Numbered from the stretch's first letter, positions 19,487 to 37,980 are shown. The stretch: 37,980 nt of DNA from a virus (IMGVR_UViG_3300020045_010481:1-37980); one strand, 5' to 3'. Made by a program: numbers and translations. The notes: generated by a model from the sequence alone, not told the origin.

Positions 19487-19945
19487 ATGGAATTACAAGA
19501 AATTTTAGAAAGATTAAAAAAGACAATTGATTTGTCTAAAACATTGAAAGATGAAGAATTTGATTATTCTCAATTAGTTTCGAAGTTTAATGAGAATAAT
19601 TGTGGTACTGTTTGTTGTATTGCAGGACACTATCCTAATTGGGGTATTGGAGAATTTTATTATCATTTTTATGATGAATATACTGAATATGCTGAATTAA
19701 TATTAAGACATGAAGGATTAGGAGCAGATATACAATCAGCATTAATTGAGTATCATGGTTTGAGTGGAGAATTAATTAGTGCTTTATTCTATGGAAGAAA
19801 TTTTGATGGAACATTTACTGATGAATTAGTAAACTACGAGGATTTATCATTATATTCTTTACAAGAAGTGATTGAACGTTTTGAAACAGTTTATGAATTA
19901 TTAGAAAACAAAACTATAACTCCTGATTGGAATCATAATGAATAA
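19487..19945 (+). CDS. Hypothetical protein, paralog of 36970..37356
   Basis: CGTVCCIAGH motif; shares MEL.EIL, GRN..GTFTD and RFETV..LL.N..I.PDW with 36970. Confidence 0.7.
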   Translation: MELQEILERLKKTIDLSKTLKDEEFDYSQLVSKFNENNCGTVCCIAGHYPNWGIGEFYYHFYDEYTEYAELILRHEGLGADIQSALIEYHGLSGELISALFYGRNFDGTFTDELVNYEDLSLYSLQEVIERFETVYELLENKTITPDWNHNE

Positions 19946-21089
19946 AATAGAAATACTCCCAAAAAGTTACAAAACTCATGGAGTAGTTTCAGAAATTTAT
20001 TATTATGTTTTAGAAATAGATGGTGATATTAATTTCATAAAACCTAAAGATTTTTATATAGGAGAATTTAAAAATCATGTATTTTTTACAAGTAATAGAA
20101 AATTTTTATTACAATGTGATGAAGCATTAAAATCATTAGAAATATTTGATATAAATTTCTTTACAAAGGAGAAATTAAAGAAATTTGATAATTTTCCTAT
20201 ATATAAATTTCATTATTCAAAAAGTTATTCCGATGTTTGTAATATTAATTCAATTATCTCAATTCTGAAACATAAAGAATATTTTAAAGAATTATTCAAC
20301 AGTTATCCAAAAATAAATCTTGATGATTATTTGGAAGAGTATAAAGAATTTTATAACTTTAAATTCACAAACATATTCTCTGATTTAGAAAAATATCCTT
20401 TATTAATCAATAATGAATTTGTATTTAGTAATTATAATTTATACAATACATTTTCAAGACCAACAAACGTTTCAAATGGTATAAATTTCAACTCAATTTC
20501 GAAAGATTCTAAGATAAGAGAAAATATAACTCCTATAAATGATTACTTCATTGAGTTTGATTATTCTAATTATCAAATGAAATTGTTAGGTGATTTTATG
20601 GGTTACGAAATAAACCAAAATTTTTATGAAGAAATGTCTCATCTTTATGGTGTTGAAGAAAGAAAAGAAGCTAAAGACAAAACACTGTACTACTGTTATG
20701 GAGAAATAAAAGAGAACCCATATCCAAAAAACAAATTCTTCAAAAAGTTATTCGAATTAAAAGATTATTTAAGTGAAGAAGGTAATATATTTCAATCAGA
20801 AATTGGTGCTAAGAAAATAGAACTAAAAGGAAACTCAGGAGATTTAGCAAGAATAATGCAAATTATAGAAACTGAGAAAAATGCGTTAGTAATCGAAAAA
20901 ATTAATTCATTTCTTGAAACTAAAAGAAGTAAGATGTCGTTATACTCATACGATGCCTTCCTAATTGATTTTTCAGAAGATGATGGATATGATGTTTTTT
21001 TAAAATTAAAACAAATTATTGAATGTAATGGAGAAACAAAAGTAAAATGGGGGTACAACTATAAAAATTTAACCAAAATTGTATTATGA
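19938..21089 (+). CDS. Minimal family-A DNA polymerase-like protein (palm and fingers, reduced thumb, no recognisable exonuclease site)
   Basis: FSRPTN...INFNSI, motif A EFDYSNYQMKLL, motif B RKEAKDKTLYYCYG, IMQ, motif C LYSYDAFLIDF, C-terminal KWGYNY. Confidence 0.8.
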   Translation: MNKIEILPKSYKTHGVVSEIYYYVLEIDGDINFIKPKDFYIGEFKNHVFFTSNRKFLLQCDEALKSLEIFDINFFTKEKLKKFDNFPIYKFHYSKSYSDVCNINSIISILKHKEYFKELFNSYPKINLDDYLEEYKEFYNFKFTNIFSDLEKYPLLINNEFVFSNYNLYNTFSRPTNVSNGINFNSISKDSKIRENITPINDYFIEFDYSNYQMKLLGDFMGYEINQNFYEEMSHLYGVEERKEAKDKTLYYCYGEIKENPYPKNKFFKKLFELKDYLSEEGNIFQSEIGAKKIELKGNSGDLARIMQIIETEKNALVIEKINSFLETKRSKMSLYSYDAFLIDFSEDDGYDVFLKLKQIIECNGETKVKWGYNYKNLTKIVL

Positions 21090-21502
21090 TTCCTCCATCT
21101 ACATTTGAAAAAACAAAATTATTCATTACCTTTGTAAAAAAAGAAGATTACAATCAAACTATCGAAGAAATAATTTCTAAATATGATGTACATTTCAAAA
21201 ATATATTTGTATTTGAAAACTCTGAAAATCAAAATGAATATATTCTATCTTATTCAATTAATTGTGATAACATTTCAAGTTTACCTCCTTACACTATGGC
21301 AGTTCATAGAAAAGGAAAAAATGAGAATGGTGAAAACGTAAATGTTATGTACACATTAAATGGATTAAACTTTCTAAAGAATCTAATAGGTAAAGAACAA
21401 GTTGATTGGAGCGATTATAAAAACTCTATAATTTTGGTATCTCCCGAAAAATCTTTGAGAGTAATTGAAACAAAAATATTCAAAATAATTAAAACACAAT
21501 AA
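21086..21502 (+). CDS. Hypothetical protein translationally coupled to the PolA-like gene
   Basis: ATGA overlap; KLFITF, AVHRK, MYTLNGLN, VDWSDYKNSIIL. Confidence 0.7.
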   Translation: MIPPSTFEKTKLFITFVKKEDYNQTIEEIISKYDVHFKNIFVFENSENQNEYILSYSINCDNISSLPPYTMAVHRKGKNENGENVNVMYTLNGLNFLKNLIGKEQVDWSDYKNSIILVSPEKSLRVIETKIFKIIKTQ

Positions 21503-21514
21503 ACAAAAAGTAAT

Positions 21515-22642
21515 ATGTCGTCAAAATGGGGTGCTTTAAAAGCAAAATTAAACAGTAAAGGTGGTGAAAAAAATGCTACCAAGAATATTTGGAAACCAAA
21601 ACTCGGAAAGAATAGAATTCGTGTTGTAGATTTTCCAAAAAATGAAGATGGTGAATATATTTTTGATTGGGTAGGAGAATTTGCTCCTTTCTTTGAATTA
21701 ATTCTTCATAAAAATCAAACAGTATTTCCTTATAAACAATTCAATGGGAAAAGAGTTGTTAATAATCTTACATTTGGTAATAATGACTTTATTGATGGAG
21801 AAAGAAATGAATGTTTCAATTCATCTGATAAACAATTAAAAGAATTCTCTAAAAAACTAATGTCTGATACAAGATGGGTTATTCCTATGATTGACAGAAA
21901 AGCAGATGAAAATAAAGTTGAATTCTTATTATTAAATCAAGAACAATTCAATCAGTTTCTTTCTGCAATTGAAGATGAAGATAATTCAGATGATGAAAAT
22001 ACGGAATATTATGATATTGCTAATTTGAAAAAAGGTTGGGATATTAATTTTTCAACAGAAGAAAAAGAATTTCCAACATCTAATGGAGGAAAAGGAAAAT
22101 TCAATGATATTGTTGGATTCAAGATGGCAAAAGAATCTTCTCCTTTGGGAAGTAAAGAAGAAATTGAAGAAATTTATGAAAATTTCCCTGATTTATTCGA
22201 AGACTTTGTTGTAATGAAAAATTCTGAAATGAAAAAAGCGTATGAAAAATATGTGAGTGGAATTGATGAAGACGATGATGATGAAGATGAAGATTATTCT
22301 TATAATAAAAAATCTTCTAAGAAAAAACCTACAAAGTATGAAGAAGATGATGACGATGATGCTCCAAAAAAATCTTCTAAGAAAAACCCATTAAAAGATG
22401 AGGAAGAAGAGGAAGAGGAAGAAGACGATGCTCCTAAGAAATCTTTTAAGAAAAAAGTGGTAGTTGAAAAGGATGAAGATGATGATGAAGAATTATCTCC
22501 AAAGAAATCTTCTAAGAAAAAACCATTAAAAGATGAGGAAGAAGAGGAAGAGGAAGAAGACGATGCTCCTAAGGCTAAGAAAAAAACACAAGCAGACTTC
22601 AAAAATCTTGTGAAAACTTCAAAAAGAAAAATTGAAGAGTAA
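21515..22642 (+). CDS. gp32: Single-stranded DNA-binding protein, gp32-like, with long charged tail
   Basis: IWKPKLGKNRIRVV, YYDIANLKKGWDI, ESSPLG; directly upstream of uvsX. Confidence 0.75.
   Translation: MSSKWGALKAKLNSKGGEKNATKNIWKPKLGKNRIRVVDFPKNEDGEYIFDWVGEFAPFFELILHKNQTVFPYKQFNGKRVVNNLTFGNNDFIDGERNECFNSSDKQLKEFSKKLMSDTRWVIPMIDRKADENKVEFLLLNQEQFNQFLSAIEDEDNSDDENTEYYDIANLKKGWDINFSTEEKEFPTSNGGKGKFNDIVGFKMAKESSPLGSKEEIEEIYENFPDLFEDFVVMKNSEMKKAYEKYVSGIDEDDDDEDEDYSYNKKSSKKKPTKYEEDDDDDAPKKSSKKNPLKDEEEEEEEEDDAPKKSFKKKVVVEKDEDDDEELSPKKSSKKKPLKDEEEEEEEEDDAPKAKKKTQADFKNLVKTSKRKIEE
22370..22573 (+). repeat. Two 69-bp near-identical direct repeats in the SSB tail
   Basis: 22370-22438 and 22505-22573 differ at one base; both encode KSSKK(N/K)PLKDEEEEEEEEDDAPK. 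Confidence 0.9.
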
Positions 22643-22715: not shown

Positions 22716-23807
22716 ATGGCAAAAAAGAAAATTACAGTTGGTGAATTAGTTAATGAACCAATATCAAAAAAACTTTCTAAAAATTTAAAATATTCATTAG
22801 AGGATATTGATGAATTATTAGGATTTAAAGGTGAAGCAGATTCTATCAAGTGGAAACCTAATAGATATTTAATTGTAGATGAAGCAATTGAAAAGGCAGT
22901 AAACAGAAAGGGTTTTATTCAATTAGGTCACTCCCACATGGTTTTAGGAATGTCTGATACAGGAAAGTCTCAATTTTTAAATAAATGTGCAATTGCTTGT
23001 CAAAAGGAAAATATTCTTCCAATCTTCATTATCACTGAATTTAAGTTCTCATTCAATCACTTGATTAATATGGGGTTTGAAGCACAAGAAGAAGTTGATG
23101 AAGAAACAGGAGAAGTTTCTTATGGAGGAGATTATATTTTCAGAGATGCTTCAACATTATTAAGCATCGAAGATATTGCTAAATTCATGATGAACTGTAT
23201 AGATTTACAAAGAAAAGGAAAAATCAAAAGAGATATTTGTTTTCTTGTAGATACTTTTGGAAATTCACAATGTATCAAATCAATTGAAAGTAAGCAATCA
23301 AATGCTATGTGGGATGCACAAGCAATGAATCAACAATTTCATAAAGGAGTGACAAGAGAAATTTCTTTAACAAGAAAATCGACTCACCCTTTTACTACGA
23401 CATTGGTTGCTTTAAATCATGCGTGGACTAATAATAGAATTGGTGAATATATGTCTCCACCAACATTAGAACCTGCTTATGGTATGGGACTTTATAAAGG
23501 ATGTACTGCTGTTCTTCAAATGGGAGATGTCACCAAACAAGGCATTAGTATTGTGAAGGCTACCAAATCAGGAAAAGACTATGATTTTGGAAAAAGAATC
23601 AAAGTACAACTTAGAAAATGGCATGGTGATGAAACAACAGTTCGTGCAAAAGTTATTATTGTAGATGAAGGATTCATTGAAGATACAAAAGAAGCAGTTG
23701 CAGAATATGTCAAAGAACATTCTAAGAAATGGGTTAAAAACATGGGATTAGATTCTAATACCGAAATAACCATGAAAGATGTTGCGTATGACGAAGATGA
23801 TGATTAA
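22716..23807 (+). CDS. uvsX: RecA/UvsX-like recombinase
   Basis: Walker A GMSDTGKS, FIITE, FLVDTFG, LVALNHAW, PAYGMGLY; adjacent to the SSB gene. Confidence 0.85.
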   Translation: MAKKKITVGELVNEPISKKLSKNLKYSLEDIDELLGFKGEADSIKWKPNRYLIVDEAIEKAVNRKGFIQLGHSHMVLGMSDTGKSQFLNKCAIACQKENILPIFIITEFKFSFNHLINMGFEAQEEVDEETGEVSYGGDYIFRDASTLLSIEDIAKFMMNCIDLQRKGKIKRDICFLVDTFGNSQCIKSIESKQSNAMWDAQAMNQQFHKGVTREISLTRKSTHPFTTTLVALNHAWTNNRIGEYMSPPTLEPAYGMGLYKGCTAVLQMGDVTKQGISIVKATKSGKDYDFGKRIKVQLRKWHGDETTVRAKVIIVDEGFIEDTKEAVAEYVKEHSKKWVKNMGLDSNTEITMKDVAYDEDDD

Positions 23808-23851: not shown

Positions 23852-24883
23852 ATGTCGAACTTAAAAGAATTATTACTAAAAAAACTTCATTCGAAGGAAT
23901 CAAATCCAACAGAACCATCCGAAAACATCGTAATTATAGATGCTATGAATCTATTTCATAGGAATATTTCAACAAATCTTTCATTAGATTTGAATGGAAA
24001 TCATATTGGAGGTATAGTTGGGACATTAAACAGTTTGTATTCTATTATTAGAAAATTCAAACCTTCAAAAATAATAATTTGTTTTGAAGGAGATAATTCG
24101 ACAGATAGAAGAAAATCAATTTTCAAATATTATAAAGGAAATAGAGAAGGAAAAGGAGTTTGTAATAGAAAAGTATTCTTTTCAGAGGAAGAATCTGATG
24201 AAAGTTTTAATTATCAACTCTTAACTCTTATAACAATTCTCCAAAATTTCCCTGTTCTTTTGATTTCTCAGGAGTTTTTAGAAGCAGATGATACAATCGG
24301 TTACATAGCTTCAAAATCGTCTCTTAAATCGAAGAATTTGATGATTATTTCTAATGATGGGGATTATCTGCAACTTGTCAATGATAATGTGAAAGTTTAT
24401 AATCCAATGTCTAAGATTTTGTTTAATCCTGTTGAAATATTTAATAAATATGAGTTAAATCATAAGAATTTTCTTCTTTATAAAACATTAATAGGTGACA
24501 TAAGTGATAATATTCCAAATGTTAAAGGAATTCAATTGAAAACATTATTAAAGATGTGTCCTCAAATATCAACTAATGAAATAAGTCATGAAGAATTTTA
24601 TAAATTTTGTGAAGAAAAGTCAAAAGAGAAGAAATCATTAAAAGTTTATAAAGAAGTTTCTGAAAATATTGAATTGATTGAACTTAATAAAAAACTAATG
24701 AATTTAAGTGATTTCAAATTATCAAATATTGAAGCTATGGAAATTGAGGAAAAATTAAATCAAGAAATTTCAATGGATTTTAAAAAATGTGTAACAAAAT
24801 GTTCAAAATTTCAGAATCATTTATTTGTAAGTCCTATGAATTTCATTTCTGAATTCTCTTATCTTTGTAATGATGGAAAGTAA
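23852..24883 (+). CDS. 5'-3' exonuclease/flap endonuclease (T4 RNase H-like)
   Basis: IIDAMNLFHR, YKGNR, EADDTIGY, ISNDGDYLQL, GDISDNIPNVKGI. Confidence 0.92.
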   Translation: MSNLKELLLKKLHSKESNPTEPSENIVIIDAMNLFHRNISTNLSLDLNGNHIGGIVGTLNSLYSIIRKFKPSKIIICFEGDNSTDRRKSIFKYYKGNREGKGVCNRKVFFSEEESDESFNYQLLTLITILQNFPVLLISQEFLEADDTIGYIASKSSLKSKNLMIISNDGDYLQLVNDNVKVYNPMSKILFNPVEIFNKYELNHKNFLLYKTLIGDISDNIPNVKGIQLKTLLKMCPQISTNEISHEEFYKFCEEKSKEKKSLKVYKEVSENIELIELNKKLMNLSDFKLSNIEAMEIEEKLNQEISMDFKKCVTKCSKFQNHLFVSPMNFISEFSYLCNDGK

Positions 24884-26023: not shown

Positions 26024-27355
26024 ATGAGTTTTGAAAAATTAGAAGAATACGATGATGAATTCATTGTAAAGTTACTTTATTGTTTAATCACTGATAAAGA
26101 TTATCTATATTTGATGTATGATTCAATTGATGTCAAATATTTTGATGAATCTGCTCAACAATGGATTGTAAATGAAGTTTTAAAATATTATAAAACATAT
26201 AATTCAAATCCTTCGAGTGATTATTTCTCAACAGAAGTCAAGAAATTCAAAAATCTTGATGAAAAAAACAAACCAATAGTTAGAGAGATTAATGAAATCC
26301 TTAAAAGAGTATTTGAGGAAGAATTCGAAGAAGTTGATTATGTTAAAGAAGAATTTAAGAATTTCATCAGAGAAAAGGCTGTAATTAATTCTATTTTAGA
26401 ATCTGTTGATTTAGCAAAAGCAGGAATGTTCGATGAATTACTAATTAAAATTGAAAGTGCTTCAAGAATTGGTGAGAAAAATGAAATTGATTTTAATTAT
26501 AAAGGTGATTTAGAGAGTAGATATAGTGAAGCAGATAAGAAAATTCTTCCATTTCCATTTGAAGAGTGGAATGAAATAACAAATGGAGGAATGAGAGTTG
26601 GAGACTTAATATTATTCTTTGCACCACAAGGAATTGGTAAATCTTGGCTTAGTGTAATTTGTGCGGATTATTTATTGAAAAATGGATATAATGTCGTATA
26701 TTTCACCCTTGAACTTGATTCTGAATATGTTGCAAGAAGATTTGATGCTACTGCTTCGGGAATTGCTTTGAATAAATTGAGTCAGAATTTGAATAAGGTT
26801 GAAGAAGCTATTGAAGATTATACAGGTGAATTGACAATCAAACGTCTTAAAGGTAAATCTCGTAGATGGAGCGTTGTTAAGAAAATTTTGAATAGATACA
26901 AGAAAGAAGGTAAGAAAATAGACTTGTTAATCATTGATTATATTGACTTATTAAAATATGATGAAGGTGGTAATAAAGATGTTGACTCTTCTGAGGAATT
27001 ATTTAATGAAGTAAGAGATTTTGGTTCTGAAAGTGGTTATCCAATTATATCTCCTGCTCAAATTAATCGAGCAGGTTCAAAAGATAGAGTTATTGAGAAT
27101 GATAAAATGTCAGGAAGTTTTAAAAAAGGTATGATTGCTGATATTTCAATCTCACTAAGTAGAACAAATGAAGATAAATTGGATAATTTAGGAGTTACAC
27201 ATTGGCAGAAAAATAGATATGGATATGATGGAATGTCTCAACAAATTTATTTAGATACTTCTTGTGGAAAAATGGAAATCTTAGGAGATTTCGTTGAAAA
27301 AAAATCTGACAACAGTTCATTAAAACAAAAATTAAAAAATAATTATAATAGTTGA
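26024..27355 (+). CDS. dnaB: Replicative DnaB/gp41-like helicase
   Basis: APQGIGKS, YFTLEL, LIIDYIDLL, SPAQINR, KNRYG. Confidence 0.92.
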   Translation: MSFEKLEEYDDEFIVKLLYCLITDKDYLYLMYDSIDVKYFDESAQQWIVNEVLKYYKTYNSNPSSDYFSTEVKKFKNLDEKNKPIVREINEILKRVFEEEFEEVDYVKEEFKNFIREKAVINSILESVDLAKAGMFDELLIKIESASRIGEKNEIDFNYKGDLESRYSEADKKILPFPFEEWNEITNGGMRVGDLILFFAPQGIGKSWLSVICADYLLKNGYNVVYFTLELDSEYVARRFDATASGIALNKLSQNLNKVEEAIEDYTGELTIKRLKGKSRRWSVVKKILNRYKKEGKKIDLLIIDYIDLLKYDEGGNKDVDSSEELFNEVRDFGSESGYPIISPAQINRAGSKDRVIENDKMSGSFKKGMIADISISLSRTNEDKLDNLGVTHWQKNRYGYDGMSQQIYLDTSCGKMEILGDFVEKKSDNSSLKQKLKNNYNS

Positions 27356-27356
27356 T

Positions 27357-28073
27357 ATGGAAAATTCACAAATACTCTTAGATGATAATATATTGAATCT
27401 ATATATGTTCGGAAGTCGAGTTTATGGAACAAATAATGAAAATTCTGATTATGATATGATTGGAATTGTAGAAAATCCTGTTATATCAGATGACATTAAT
27501 GTAAAATATTTCACTGTAACAGAATTCCAAAATTTAGTTGATAACCATGATATACAAGCATTGGAATGTTTATTCTTACATGATAAGTTTAAGTTAAAAG
27601 AAACTTTAAAAGAACACTTTGTTTTCAATCTTAATAAAAATGTTTTAAGAAAATCAATTTCAACGGTATCTAATGGTAGTTGGGTTAAGGGTAAAAAGAA
27701 ACTAACTGTTATGGCAGATTATGATAAAGAATTAGCCTTAAAAAGTTTATTTCATTCAATCAGAATTTTAAATTTTGGAATCCAAATTGCAGTTGCAGGA
27801 CATATATTTGACTATTCGAAAGTAAATTGGTTATTATCAGACCTAAAGAAAATGGGTACTCAATTTGAATATGAACAATTATGGAATAAAATTGATGAAA
27901 AGTATAGGGAATTTAGAAATAATATGAGTACAAATTTTAAGTCAAGTTGTCCTAAATTTACTTCAAATAATGTTCCTATTCAAACTAAATTAGGAAATTT
28001 ATTAATTGAAAATGGAATTTTTGATTCATTATTGGTACATAAAATAATAAAATTGTTTGATGAATATGAATAA
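27357..28073 (+). CDS. Pol-beta superfamily nucleotidyltransferase
   Basis: YMFGSRVYGTNNENSDYD; helical C-terminus KSLFHSIR. Confidence 0.85.
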   Translation: MENSQILLDDNILNLYMFGSRVYGTNNENSDYDMIGIVENPVISDDINVKYFTVTEFQNLVDNHDIQALECLFLHDKFKLKETLKEHFVFNLNKNVLRKSISTVSNGSWVKGKKKLTVMADYDKELALKSLFHSIRILNFGIQIAVAGHIFDYSKVNWLLSDLKKMGTQFEYEQLWNKIDEKYREFRNNMSTNFKSSCPKFTSNNVPIQTKLGNLLIENGIFDSLLVHKIIKLFDEYE

Positions 28074-28758
28074 TCCATTAGCAAGTTTCGTTTGTTTGAC
28101 ATATAAACGTCCGACATTATTAAATGAACTATTGTATTGTTTTTTAAATCAAACATACGAAAATAAAGAACTAATAATTGTTAATGATGAATATAATGTC
28201 GAATATGTATTTGATGATGAAAGAGTTAAGATATACAATATAAAAGAAAGATTCTCATCTCTTAGTGAAAAGAGAAATTTTTCGAGAAGTATTGTTAATG
28301 GTGATTATATTTTTATTACAGATGATGATGATATATTTTACACAAATCACGTATCAAAATTATTAAAATATCATTCATATAATAACCATTATGACATTGT
28401 ATTCAATAAAATAGCACATTATTCAGTTCATAATGAGAATATTTCAGACATTATTCAACAAGTCGCATTTAATGGTTCTTCAATAAAGAGAGAATATTAT
28501 TTGAACAATTCTTTTCCAATAGAAGTTAGTTGTGGCGAAGACCAAGAATTCATAAAAAATGCTAAAATTCTTGGAATTGAATATGAAGAACCAACATTTC
28601 ATTATAGATGGGGATTAAACATTCATCATATATCGGGAATGGGAGGAGATGGAAAAGAATCATATCAAATCTATGGAAAATTGAATGAAAATGTCGAACA
28701 AAAAACAATTATATTAGAACCAAAATTGTTAAAATTAACACAATTATACTATAAATAA
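28063..28758 (+). CDS. Glycosyltransferase family 2 (GT-A); ATG 28063 likely
   Basis: VCLTYKR, NQTY..KELIIVND, KRN, YIFITDDDD, GED. Confidence 0.88.
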   Translation, partial: NMNNPLASFVCLTYKRPTLLNELLYCFLNQTYENKELIIVNDEYNVEYVFDDERVKIYNIKERFSSLSEKRNFSRSIVNGDYIFITDDDDIFYTNHVSKLLKYHSYNNHYDIVFNKIAHYSVHNENISDIIQQVAFNGSSIKREYYLNNSFPIEVSCGEDQEFIKNAKILGIEYEEPTFHYRWGLNIHHISGMGGDGKESYQIYGKLNENVEQKTIILEPKLLKLTQLYYK

Positions 28759-28760
28759 TT

Positions 28761-29435
28761 ATGAACATTCACATAACAAAGTCCCAACACGAATATTTAC
28801 AAAAATTTGTAATACAAACATTCAAAATTGGAAGCCATCTTTATGGAACTAATAATGAAAATTCGGACTTAGATTTATTGTGCATATATGAACCAAATAA
28901 GTCTGATTTGTATCGGATTAATGAATTCATTATTACACATCAATTGCAATACAAAGACGTTGACAATAACATTGATTATATTTATTCAACAATTAATCAA
29001 TATCATTGGAATCAAAGAAGTGGTGAATCAACAATTAATAGTGATGTGATGTTATTTTCTAATTATTTACTCACGGATGCTTGTTTTACGTATAAAGTGA
29101 TTAAAGGATATTTAGGAATGGCTAAACGGGATTTGAAGCAATATAAGGAGGGAACACATAAACTGATTCATACTAAACGTGGACTCTATTGTGCTGAAAT
29201 GTTAATGATGAGACAATTACCATCATTGGATGTAATTAGAACTTTTTATAACATTGACCATGATGTTAATGAATTAATTGAATTGGAGAAAAAATTGAGA
29301 AGTAAATTAACAGATATGTTCAATAAAGATGAAATAAAAATGTATTATATTCCTGAGATTTATGATGAAGATAATGACGAGGGAGTATTTCAATTATTGT
29401 TAAATTCAAAGAATACAAAAGAATTCAGATATTAA
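28761..29435 (+). CDS. Second Pol-beta superfamily nucleotidyltransferase (RlaP/T4 NrdC.11-like)
   Basis: IGSHLYGTNNENSDLDLLCIY; KGYLGMA; KLIHTKR. Confidence 0.85.
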   Translation: MNIHITKSQHEYLQKFVIQTFKIGSHLYGTNNENSDLDLLCIYEPNKSDLYRINEFIITHQLQYKDVDNNIDYIYSTINQYHWNQRSGESTINSDVMLFSNYLLTDACFTYKVIKGYLGMAKRDLKQYKEGTHKLIHTKRGLYCAEMLMMRQLPSLDVIRTFYNIDHDVNELIELEKKLRSKLTDMFNKDEIKMYYIPEIYDEDNDEGVFQLLLNSKNTKEFRY

Positions 29436-35934: not shown

Positions 35935-36141
35935 ATGGCATTTTACAAAGCTAAAGTGAAAGAAGAAGTAGGAGAAAATCCTAAAGGTGGTACAAAATAT
36001 GCTACCAAAAATTACATTGTTGAAGGACTATCTGTCGAAGAAGCAACAGGTAAAATTCATAATCATTTCAAAGATTTCACTTATGATTGGGAGTTGGTTG
36101 GAGTCGATGCAATCAAAATTGAAGAAGTTATTTTAAATTAA
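35935..36141 (+). CDS. DUF4494-like small protein (Bacteroidota-associated family)
   Basis: FYKAKVK...K..TKNYIVEGLSVEEA..KI pattern. Confidence 0.65.
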   Translation: MAFYKAKVKEEVGENPKGGTKYATKNYIVEGLSVEEATGKIHNHFKDFTYDWELVGVDAIKIEEVILN

Positions 36142-36969: not shown

Positions 36970-37356
36970 ATGGAATTATATGAAATATTGGATGATTTAG
37001 AGAGTGCAATAAACTACTTAAAATCATTAGACCAAGATTATGATTTGAAATTCCAAAGTGAACTCATAAACAATTATATAAAGGATAGAAGTGATGATGA
37101 TTATCGAAAAATTATTACTGAAAAATCTAATATAACAAAAATGAGTGATGAATTGGTCTTTATATTATATCTTGGAAGAAATTATGAAGGAACATTTACT
37201 GATGATTTCTTTAAATTCAAAGATTATGGATTTTGTGAAAGAAATAATATCGAATTTGTTCAATATGAAATGAAAGATATTGCTTTCAGATTTGAAACAG
37301 TTCATAAACTCTTGAAAAATGGTCAAATAAACCCTGATTGGACTCCTAATTATTAA
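36970..37356 (+). CDS. Hypothetical protein, paralog of 19487..19945
   Basis: Shared motifs GRNYEGTFTD and RFETVHKLLKNGQINPDW. Confidence 0.7.
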   Translation: MELYEILDDLESAINYLKSLDQDYDLKFQSELINNYIKDRSDDDYRKIITEKSNITKMSDELVFILYLGRNYEGTFTDDFFKFKDYGFCERNNIEFVQYEMKDIAFRFETVHKLLKNGQINPDWTPNY

Positions 37357-37382: not shown

Positions 37383-37980
37383 ATGAAAACTCACTTCACA
37401 TTACAAAACTTAATCAAAGTTGTAATCCTCTTCGCTTTAATTTCGCAAGTTATTCATGCACAATATGTTTATAAACTATTGTCACATGATGAAGGTGGGT
37501 TATTTAATGAAATTTCTTACTACGTTTTCGCAATTTCTCTTGAATGTTCAATTTTCATTTTTACATTGAAGGGAATGGTTAATAAGGCTCGTTTTTTCTG
37601 CGTTATTTCGATTCTAATCAACTTAGTTTACTATTGGTATGAATTAGGTGGCACACAACAATTCATTGGTTCTATCATAATCTCTGTAATTATTCCTGTT
37701 ACCATCTACTTTTATTCAGATTTATTTCAAAATGATGAACTAATCGAAGAAGAAATTCCTTATTCAATTGAAGAAGAAATTCCTTACATTGAAGATTTCT
37801 ACACAGAAAGTAAAGTAATTGAAGAGGTATCTCCTGTAAAAAGGTCTGTCGGAAGACCAAAAGGTGGTACAAAATATGCTACCAAAAATTACATTGTTGA
37901 AGGACTATCTGTCGAAGAAGCAACAGGTAAAATTCATAATCATTTCAAAGATTTCACTTATGATTGGGAGTTGGTTGGAG
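37383..37980 (+). CDS. Multi-pass membrane protein with acidic linker and AT-hook-like motif, open to the window end (not in ORF track)
   Basis: MKTHFTLQNLIKVVILFALISQV...; about 4 hydrophobic segments, IEEEIPY twice, KRSVGRPKG, then in-frame into the repeated DUF4494-like sequence. Confidence 0.65.
   Translation, partial: MKTHFTLQNLIKVVILFALISQVIHAQYVYKLLSHDEGGLFNEISYYVFAISLECSIFIFTLKGMVNKARFFCVISILINLVYYWYELGGTQQFIGSIIISVIIPVTIYFYSDLFQNDELIEEEIPYSIEEEIPYIEDFYTESKVIEEVSPVKRSVGRPKGGTKYATKNYIVEGLSVEEATGKIHNHFKDFTYDWELVG
37860..37980 (+). repeat. Exact 121-bp direct repeat of 35983-36103
   Basis: AAAGGTGGTACAAAATATGCTACC...GGGAGTTGGTTGGAG is identical at both sites. Confidence 0.95.

What the first reader, a model, noticed from the sequence alone, without database searches (positions are those of the whole stretch)
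19938..21502. Minimal PolA-like enzyme with altered sugar gate and RNAP-like motif C, coupled to an uncharacterised partner
Seen: a 383-aa protein keeps the catalytic residues of family-A polymerases (R174, motif A D208, motif B R242/K246/Y254, motif C D339). It has almost no room for a thumb and no recognisable exonuclease motif. By manual alignment, the ribonucleotide-excluding steric gate (Klenow E710 in DYSQIE) is Q213 (DYSNYQ), F762 is Leu, and HDE is YDAF. Established: E710 discriminates against rNTPs, and T7-type RNA polymerases lack this Glu and have HDSF in motif C. The gene overlaps (ATGA) a 138-aa gene and heads the SSB-UvsX-flap nuclease-DnaB cluster; no primase or PolB lies in this window. 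Inference: a two-component non-canonical polymerase, such as a primase-like RNA-primer synthesiser, a small single-subunit RNAP or a recombination/gap-filling polymerase, with the partner replacing the thumb or processivity function.
Basis: partly seen in the sequence, partly recalled or inferred. Interest (0 to 1): 0.8.

Follow-up and report, generated by a model that had tools for sequence, protein, structure and literature searches.

The report
Thumbless phage polymerase, glutamine sugar gate
This phage gene encodes a shrunken relative of DNA polymerase I with no thumb, no proofreading motifs and glutamine where a glutamate normally keeps RNA building blocks out; it is a divergent member of a family (divPolA1) described by computer analysis in 2024, and it likely makes short starter strands with a small neighbouring protein rather than copying the genome or making mRNA.

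Summary
The 383-aa ORF folds as a family-A polymerase with a vestigial exonuclease and a 15-residue thumb remnant (118 in Pol I). It belongs to divPolA1 (Yutin 2024; Immutovirus gp001), which this scan has already found on many other phage contigs. Across 237 homologues both catalytic Asps are invariant and the gate is His (227) or Gln (10), never Glu. The window protein sits in a long-branch subclade (Gln gate, Leu762, Arg754). The 138-aa partner is linked in 75 of 80 loci, and the polymerase in 78 of 80 partner loci.

The window is a fragment. All 8 near-complete relatives also encode a main replicase, DnaG and a sigma-like protein, so this enzyme replaces neither primase nor transcriptase. 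It lacks the specificity loop, gate Gly and His784 of single-subunit RNA polymerases. In most relatives the partner carries its own putative late-promoter motif (55 of 56 adjacent loci), but not here.

Best guess: a distributive maker of short, possibly ribonucleotide-containing primers (0.4). Close rival: dNTP gap or D-loop filling (0.33). No assay was found in print.

The parts
19938..21089 (+). divPolA1-family polymerase, 383 aa, Gln/Leu/Arg subclade
19938..20330 (+). vestigial 3'-5' exonuclease fold (aa 1-131), no recognisable Exo motifs; conserved H14, K55, D71, N104, K111, E114
   Evidence: fold matches to exonuclease domains over model residues 1-131; conservation
20388..20435 (+). thumb remnant E151-Y166 (15 aa; 33 aa in most of the family; 118 in E. 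coli Pol I)
   Evidence: DSSP
20559..20576 (+). motif A DYSNYQ: catalytic D208, gate Q213 (= Pol I E710)
20661..20699 (+). motif B R242-K246-L250-Y254 (= R754, K758, F762, Y766)
20859..20870 (+). Q308 (= Q849) and invariant E311 (Ala/Gly in DNA PolAs, Asp787 in T7 RNAP by manual alignment)
20949..20960 (+). motif C YDAF, catalytic D339 (= D882)
21086..21502 (+). 138-aa partner; predicted ferredoxin-like N-half plus HRK / YTxNxLN hairpin and C-terminal alpha/beta part; no family assignment
21515..22642 (+). gp32-like SSB with long acidic repeat tail
   Evidence: clusters with Immuto gp004, which hits PHROG SSB families; repeat D1
22716..23807 (+). RecA/UvsX-like recombinase
23852..24883 (+). 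5'-3' exonuclease / flap nuclease
   Evidence: Pfam PF02739 E 4.6e-27
26024..27355 (+). DnaB-like helicase

Best explanation
This is a thumbless, proofreading-dead family-A polymerase of the divPolA1 family that keeps its catalytic residues, and it likely works with the 138-aa neighbour as a distributive maker of short starter strands (primers, probably tolerant of ribonucleotides) beside the main replicase and DnaG that its relatives encode. Shown: the fold, the residues, the family-wide gate change, the gene linkage, and the co-occurring replicase, primase and sigma-like gene in relatives. Inferred: template-directed catalysis, because R174, N183, Q308 and Y254 are kept; short products, because there is no thumb to hold a duplex; room for an initiating triphosphate, because the helix before motif A is shortened; the partner as the DNA grip; and use at origin firing or fork restart rather than at Okazaki priming.
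For: D208, D339, R174, E311 are 237/237, Q308 236/237, K246 235/237. The gate is H 227 / Q 10 / E 0, whereas the canonical PolAs of the same phages keep DYxSLE. The thumb is 14-35 aa against 118. The N678-R690 stretch is 8 aa in 221 of 235 against 12 in Pol I, 13 in T7 DNAP and 5 in T7 RNAP; Bebel 2020 links this shortening to room for the first triphosphate in CCPol and RNAPs. The enzyme is kept whether the main replicase is PolA, PolB or PolC, including phages whose full PolA could fill gaps itself, which argues for a non-redundant job (inference). The partner is linked in 75/80 and 78/80 loci and is more conserved than the polymerase (median 55% vs 40%). Precedents: PolA plus small protein as a primase (PMC7581432, PMC10061031); His at a sugar gate admits NTPs in PrimPol Y100H (abstract; a different fold). 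In this subclade both sugar-pocket residues are changed (Q213, L250).
Against: A DnaG-family gene is present in 8 of 8 near-complete relatives (TOPRIM motifs read intact in the 3 inspected), so no priming gap is obvious. His and Gln are bulky, while RNAPs use Gly there. Klenow E710Q closes no better on rUTP (K2 0.056) than wild type (0.083) and still prefers dTTP (0.52). Leu762 occurs in ordinary phage DNA PolAs. CCPol keeps E710/F762 and uses dNTPs. The partner carries TATTTAT upstream in 55/56 adjacent loci against 1/67 for the polymerase, which suggests separate regulation rather than a 1:1 subunit. It lies more than 500 nt away in 9 of 75 loci and in L320. The neighbours RecA and flap nuclease fit repair equally well.
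Confidence: 0.4

Rival explanations
1. A distributive dNTP polymerase for short patches: it fills gaps after the flap nuclease (a split Pol I) or extends RecA-made D-loops. His/Gln with the new E311 rebuilds a pocket that still excludes ribose.
For: Fold and sequence are closest to DNA PolAs (Z 20-23 vs 8-12 for RNAPs; hhalign hit to Pol I only). N-x-x-x-Q849 spacing and Gln are DNA-PolA-like. The gene order runs into SSB, RecA, flap nuclease and DnaB. DnaG is present in relatives. E710Q data. Yutin 2024 assumes DNAP activity.
Against: Without a thumb, holding a primer duplex is hard. The function would be redundant with host Pol I and with the phage's full PolA where present. It does not explain why Glu never appears (0/237) although Gln is one base change away, nor the shortened helix.
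Confidence: 0.33
2. A specialised nucleotidyltransferase that adds one or a few nucleotides (modified bases, end tailing, or short signalling or anti-defence oligonucleotides), with the partner as regulator or acceptor.
For: Rewired pocket (H/Q gate, Y for H881, S/A for E883, R754 to Tyr in 156/235). No thumb. Several relatives carry base-modification genes. The partner has invariant Tyr/Thr residues.
Against: Template- and minor-groove-reading residues are conserved. The position at the head of the replication cluster is fixed, while modification genes vary among relatives.
Confidence: 0.13
3. A minimal single-subunit RNA polymerase for late genes (N4 RNAPII-like), with the partner as activator, reading the TATTTAT motif.
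For: Motif C YD[S/A]F resembles HDSF/HDCF, E311 sits at D787, and this subclade has R-K-L/M-Y in motif B. A strand-biased TATTTAT motif precedes structural genes. No multi-subunit RNAP beta subunit in 0 of 5 genomes tested.
Against: No specificity loop (Y254 to Q308 is 54 aa vs 145 in T7 RNAP and 83 in Pol I), no thumb, no gate Gly, no His784. A conserved sigma-like gene in relatives can account for the late motif. PolBs also have Ser after the catalytic Asp (DTDS).
Confidence: 0.06
4. The polymerase and the small gene are neighbours in a conserved block but work apart; the partner is a late recombination, loading or transcription cofactor. This is compatible with any catalytic reading above.
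For: Own putative late motif in 55/56 adjacent loci; insertions between the genes in some loci; no credible fusion.
Against: After rearrangement it stays nearer the polymerase (about 2 kb) than the SSB (5-9 kb) in G003 and G005. It overlaps the polymerase at ATGA in the window.
Confidence: 0.3

Closest known systems
divPolA1 (Yutin et al. 2024, Virol J 21:200, PMC11348598); prototype Flavobacterium phage immuto gp001
   Same: Homologous (31% over 318 aa); intact palm, truncated thumb, dead exonuclease; heads a conserved replication gene array; second polymerase beside a regular one.
   Different: The window protein has Gln/Leu/Arg where the prototype has His/Phe/Tyr, a shorter thumb remnant (15 vs 33 aa), and an overlapping partner gene without the upstream TATTTAT. 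The paper's text does not discuss the gate ('steric gate' 0 occurrences) or, in the sections read, the partner.
CCPol-MP / PolA-SSB primases (PMC7581432, PMC10061031)
   Same: Exonuclease-less PolA next to a small protein in a helicase-containing cluster; shortened helix before motif A.
   Different: CCPol keeps E710/F762, uses dNTPs, pairs with an OB-fold SSB and a D5/Cch helicase on integrative elements. Here the partner model matches ferredoxin-like folds, the helicase is DnaB and relatives encode DnaG.
T7/N4-type single-subunit RNA polymerases, especially N4 RNAPII
   Same: No Glu at the gate; small residue after the motif C Asp; acidic residue at the D787 position.
   Different: No gate Gly, no His784, no specificity loop, no thumb; much lower fold scores (Z 7-12 vs 20-23).
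TV-Pol (Iyer 2008, PMC2579912) and divPolA2 (Yutin 2024)
   Same: Minimal PolA cores proposed as primases or RNAPs.
   Different: TV-Pols keep a thumb module and go with D5 helicases; divPolA2 has an unrelated N-domain and variable context. Neither was aligned here.

Membership tests
divPolA1 | Homology to Immutovirus divPolA1 (gp001) | tested here: met
   31% over 318 aa, pairwise E 3e-36; same cluster and tree
divPolA1 | Palm catalytic residues conserved | tested here: met
   D208 and D339 237/237, aligned to D705/D882
divPolA1 | Truncated thumb | tested here: met
   15 aa vs 118
divPolA1 | Exonuclease domain present but inactivated | tested here: met
   Fold over residues 1-131; no Exo I/II/III motif by manual comparison with Pol I; no residue-level structural alignment was available
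divPolA1 | Upstream of the gp32-RecA-exonuclease-DnaB array | tested here: met
divPolA1 | Genome also encodes a regular DNA polymerase | tested here: inconclusive
   The window is the whole held record and a fragment; met in 8 of 8 near-complete relatives, none from the Gln subclade
PolA-SSB (CCPol-MP) primases | Partner is an OB-fold SSB | tested here: inconclusive
   Model residues 4-75 match ferredoxin-like/ACT folds at Z 5-7; the C-half was barely tested
PolA-SSB (CCPol-MP) primases | E710 and F762 retained (CCPol) | tested here: not met
   Q213, L250
PolA-SSB (CCPol-MP) primases | Pol-SSB-D5/Cch helicase operon on an integrative element | tested here: not met
   DnaB helicase in a T4-like myophage block
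PolA-SSB (CCPol-MP) primases | Primer-independent synthesis needing the partner | not testable with these tools
   needs an assay
T7/N4-type single-subunit RNAP | Gly at the gate (G542) and His784 | tested here: not met
   Gln213 and Gln308
T7/N4-type single-subunit RNAP | Promoter specificity loop | tested here: not met
   Y254 to Q308 is 54 aa (family mostly 52-63) vs 145 in T7 RNAP
T7/N4-type single-subunit RNAP | Motif C H-D-S/C-F | tested here: inconclusive
   YDAF / YDSF: +1 and +2 positions match, His is Tyr in 234/237
canonical PolA replicase | Glu steric gate, full thumb, HDE motif | tested here: not met

The most novel reading that the evidence does not exclude
divPolA1 plus its ferredoxin-fold partner is a new kind of primase: a thumbless Pol I derivative that starts RNA or mixed primers de novo at phage origins or stalled forks, using His/Gln to accept the ribose 2'-OH. 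It would be a natural DNA-PolA-to-RNA-synthesis switch independent of T7-type RNAPs, carried by one of the most widespread groups of aquatic myophages.
Probability: 0.25. Interest if true: 0.8.

Novelty: new variant of a known kind. Interest (0 to 1): 0.42.

Why it matters
The family is very large: 1,254 representative proteins (50% clusters) at E<=1e-10, and at least 7,998 partner clusters at 90%. No assay was found in the searches run. If it makes RNA or starts strands de novo, it is a natural exception to the Glu steric-gate rule of family-A polymerases and a new priming system, of use to enzyme engineers. A cultured phage (Immutovirus on Flavobacterium) makes this directly testable. The Gln/Leu/Arg subclade is the most stripped-down form and a good contrast to the His prototype. 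If it is a dNTP gap-filler, it is a modest addition to a described family.

Tried and rejected
Complex prediction of polymerase plus partner: no verdict, score 0.00; it counts neither for nor against binding. Sequencing runs: no RNA holder listed, best share 0.15, none laid; no statement on expression or habitat. Pfam, PHROGs, NCBIfam and single-sequence PDB searches gave no meaningful hit for either window protein. hhalign to T7 RNAP and N4 RNAPII gave no match (single-sequence templates, weak test). Partner fold searches found only generic ferredoxin/ACT matches (Z<=7), weak HUH Rep / origin-binding-domain rows (E>=0.09; no HUH motif visible) and weak AEP-primase rows (TM 0.43); no OB-fold, RegA, UvsY or little-finger entry appeared among the listed rows, which does not exclude them. 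I first favoured a late-gene RNAP (45%) after seeing TATTTAT, and dropped it when a conserved sigma-like gene turned up in relatives. That gene's assignment rests on sub-cutoff NCBIfam and Pfam hits and Atlas features; PHROGs and PDB searches were blank. Longer proteins containing the partner (9 hits): three include divPolA1 pieces but are truncated or lack the junction; treated as probable assembly or gene-call artefacts. Searches for the rest of a Gln-subclade genome found only L320 (18 of 42 kb; record not held for more). GTDB scan: 13 partner loci, all in MAG contigs of mixed taxa, so no host assignment. The generic sigma-70 scan was at chance level (98 vs 87.7 +/- 7.4).

Full report
Observation. 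The window is the whole held record. It is a fragment of a T4-like myophage: gp23 capsid, prohead protease, sheath and tube, then the finding, then SSB, RecA, 5'-3' exonuclease, methylase, DnaB and ribonucleotide reductase. Neither protein hits Pfam, PHROGs or NCBIfam meaningfully on its own. Of 18 database homologues, 5 carry PF00476. A family profile aligns to E. coli Pol I with probability 96%, placing Q213 on E710 and YDA on HDE. The AlphaFold model (pLDDT 95.9) matches family-A DNA polymerases at Z 20-23 and single-subunit RNAPs at Z 8-12; residues 1-131 match exonuclease domains.

Identity. A homologue search of GenBank phages gave 6 records: four Immutovirus entries, Microcystis phage Mel-JY01 and LR756508; the partner hit the same 6. 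Yutin et al. 2024 named this family divPolA1: palm intact, thumb truncated, exonuclease dead, beside a regular PolA, B or C, probably involved in replication (passages, two sections and a supplement search seen; figures not seen and their alignments may show the gate residue). A full-text search for 'divPolA1' found only that paper and its preprint; searches found no assay or description of the gate or partner. This scan has met the family on many other contigs.

Active site. In 237 unique sequences (242 before de-duplication; short ones filtered out) R174, D208, E311 and D339 are invariant, Q308 is 236, K246 235 and Y254 227. The gate is His 227, Gln 10, Glu 0; position 762 is Phe 222, Leu 12; motif C is Y-D-S (158) or Y-D-A (78). 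Position 754 is Tyr in 156 and Arg in 20 of 235. The window protein groups with 7 others on a long branch with Gln/Leu(Met)/Arg and a 14-15-residue thumb remnant; two further Gln sequences lie outside it (FastTree on 64 sequences). Against tool-fetched Pol I, T7 DNAP, T7 RNAP and N4 RNAPII (manual alignment) the picture is mixed. DNA-PolA-like: a bulky gate residue, N-x-x-x-Q849, no specificity loop. RNAP-like: a small residue after the motif C Asp, an acidic residue at D787, and a shortened helix before motif A (8 aa in 221 of 235; Pol I 12, T7 RNAP 5). PolBs also have Ser after the Asp, so motif C is weak evidence. Published data cut against reading Gln and Leu as proof of RNA synthesis: E710Q K2 for rUTP is 0.056 against 0.083 for wild type (PMC3715850, Table 1 and passages), and Leu762 is common in viral DNA PolAs, though its rNTP use is called untested (bioRxiv 10.64898/2026.05.20.726624, passages). 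For His, PrimPol Y100H is a precedent in another fold (PMC6362072, abstract). T7 RNAP uses G542 and H784 (PMC11617373, passages).

Partner. It is found downstream in 75 of 80 polymerase loci, 66 of them within 30 nt; the 5 misses have 7-2,224 nt of downstream DNA. Conversely the polymerase lies upstream in 78 of 80 partner loci, and the 2 misses are cut short (the two sets share some contigs). It is more conserved than the polymerase (median 55% vs 40%, 60 pairs from 30 loci), with invariant H74, R75, Y89, T90, N92, N95 and W108 in 46 sequences. The model (pLDDT 91.3) has a ferredoxin-like N-half with generic matches only. A TATTTAT motif lies upstream of 55 of 56 adjacent partner genes, 1 of 8 distant ones, 1 of 67 polymerase genes, 6 of 53 SSB, 2 of 50 RecA, 0 of 44 flap nuclease and 0 of 37 DnaB genes; background is 3.7% per 100 nt. 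The same motif precedes structural genes in the window (1978, 4655, 6718, 8464, 10218, 11855) and in relatives (32 of 196 genes in Immuto, 40 of 204 in G001, 6 of 46 here), at least once straight after a hairpin and T-run. I read it as a late promoter (inference). The window's partner lacks it. In L320, the one syntenic Gln-subclade locus, a gene is inserted between the two.

Genome context. Eight near-complete relatives were checked: Immuto 2-6A, Mel-JY01, G001 and G006-G010. All 8 have divPolA1, the partner, a main replicase (PolA in 1, PolB in 7) and DnaG. All 8 have a conserved ORF of about 250 aa (G009 and G010 were reached through that gene) with sub-cutoff hits to sigma families in 3 of 3 tested and an Atlas feature score of 0.97 to a viral sigma cluster; an earlier scan note prompted this check. 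No RNAP beta subunit was found in 5 genomes tested. So divPolA1 is a core gene that is not the replicase, not the only primase and probably not the late transcriptase. No complete Gln-subclade genome was available, so this is extrapolated to the window.

Mechanism. Shown: intact catalytic and template-reading residues, no thumb, no proofreading motifs, a rewired sugar pocket and a fixed partner. Inferred: distributive synthesis of short products. I favour de novo or restart priming with relaxed sugar choice (0.4). It is retained whatever the replicase, including a full PolA; the thumb is dispensable when no duplex lies upstream; the helix shortening matches CCPol and RNAPs (PMC7581432, passages and first part of the Discussion); and PolA plus small-protein primases exist (PMC10061031, parts 1-2 of 5). 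Phages and organelles that prime origins with one enzyme and Okazaki fragments with another (T7, T4, mitochondria) are recalled, not checked. The dNTP gap or D-loop filler is nearly as likely (0.33), and most earlier scan notes prefer it. A specialised transferase (0.13) and an mRNA polymerase (0.06) are weaker. Separately, there is about a 0.3 chance that the two proteins do not act as a complex.

Other papers seen: PMC10201439 (abstract and one section), PMC2579912 (parts 1-2 of 3), PMC9723584 (passages; nothing relevant).

Verdict. A real feature and a divergent variant of a published, apparently unassayed family. Beyond the text of the 2024 paper, this work adds the universal non-Glu gate, the Gln/Leu/Arg subclade, reciprocal partner linkage, and the partner's putative late promoter with a sigma-like gene to read it. 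Interest 0.42.

Noticed in passing
window 1978, 4655, 6718, 8464, 10218, 11855; Immuto gp118 (L082:28174-28872); G001 78440-79213: TATTTAT motif upstream of structural genes (reverse complement of the recalled T4 late promoter TATAAATA) and an unannotated sigma-like gene conserved in 8 of 8 near-complete relatives: a likely late transcription system of this phage group.
   Followed up: partly
window 27357-29435: Two Pol-beta-type nucleotidyltransferase genes flank a GT2 glycosyltransferase; possible nucleotide or DNA modification or counter-defence module (one weak hit to HalB, E 0.029).
   Followed up: no
window 22273-22573: The SSB tail is four imperfect 60-69-nt repeats encoding alternating Lys-rich and Glu/Asp-rich runs, making it about 100 aa longer than in relatives.
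   Followed up: no
window 35980-36103 and 37857-37980: 124-nt direct repeat at 99% identity, the second copy at the contig end; probably the cause of the assembly break.
   Followed up: no
window 19487-19945 and 36970-37356: The ORF just upstream of the polymerase shares an 84-nt stretch (71%) with an ORF near the contig end: probable paralogues.
   Followed up: no
upstream of divPolA1 in L002-L079: AAAGGTT or AAGGTT just before the start codon in most relatives, Shine-Dalgarno-like, often preceded by TTG-N-TATATT; absent in the window. Seen by eye, not counted.
   Followed up: no
L320:11620-11740; window upstream of 16773 and 32636: TAnnTTTG elements typical of Bacteroidota promoters (recalled consensus) hint at a Bacteroidota host; not tested against chance.
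   Followed up: no
window 19938-20330: The dead exonuclease domain keeps conserved H14 (232/237), K55, D71, N104, K111 and E114, perhaps a repurposed binding site.
   Followed up: partly
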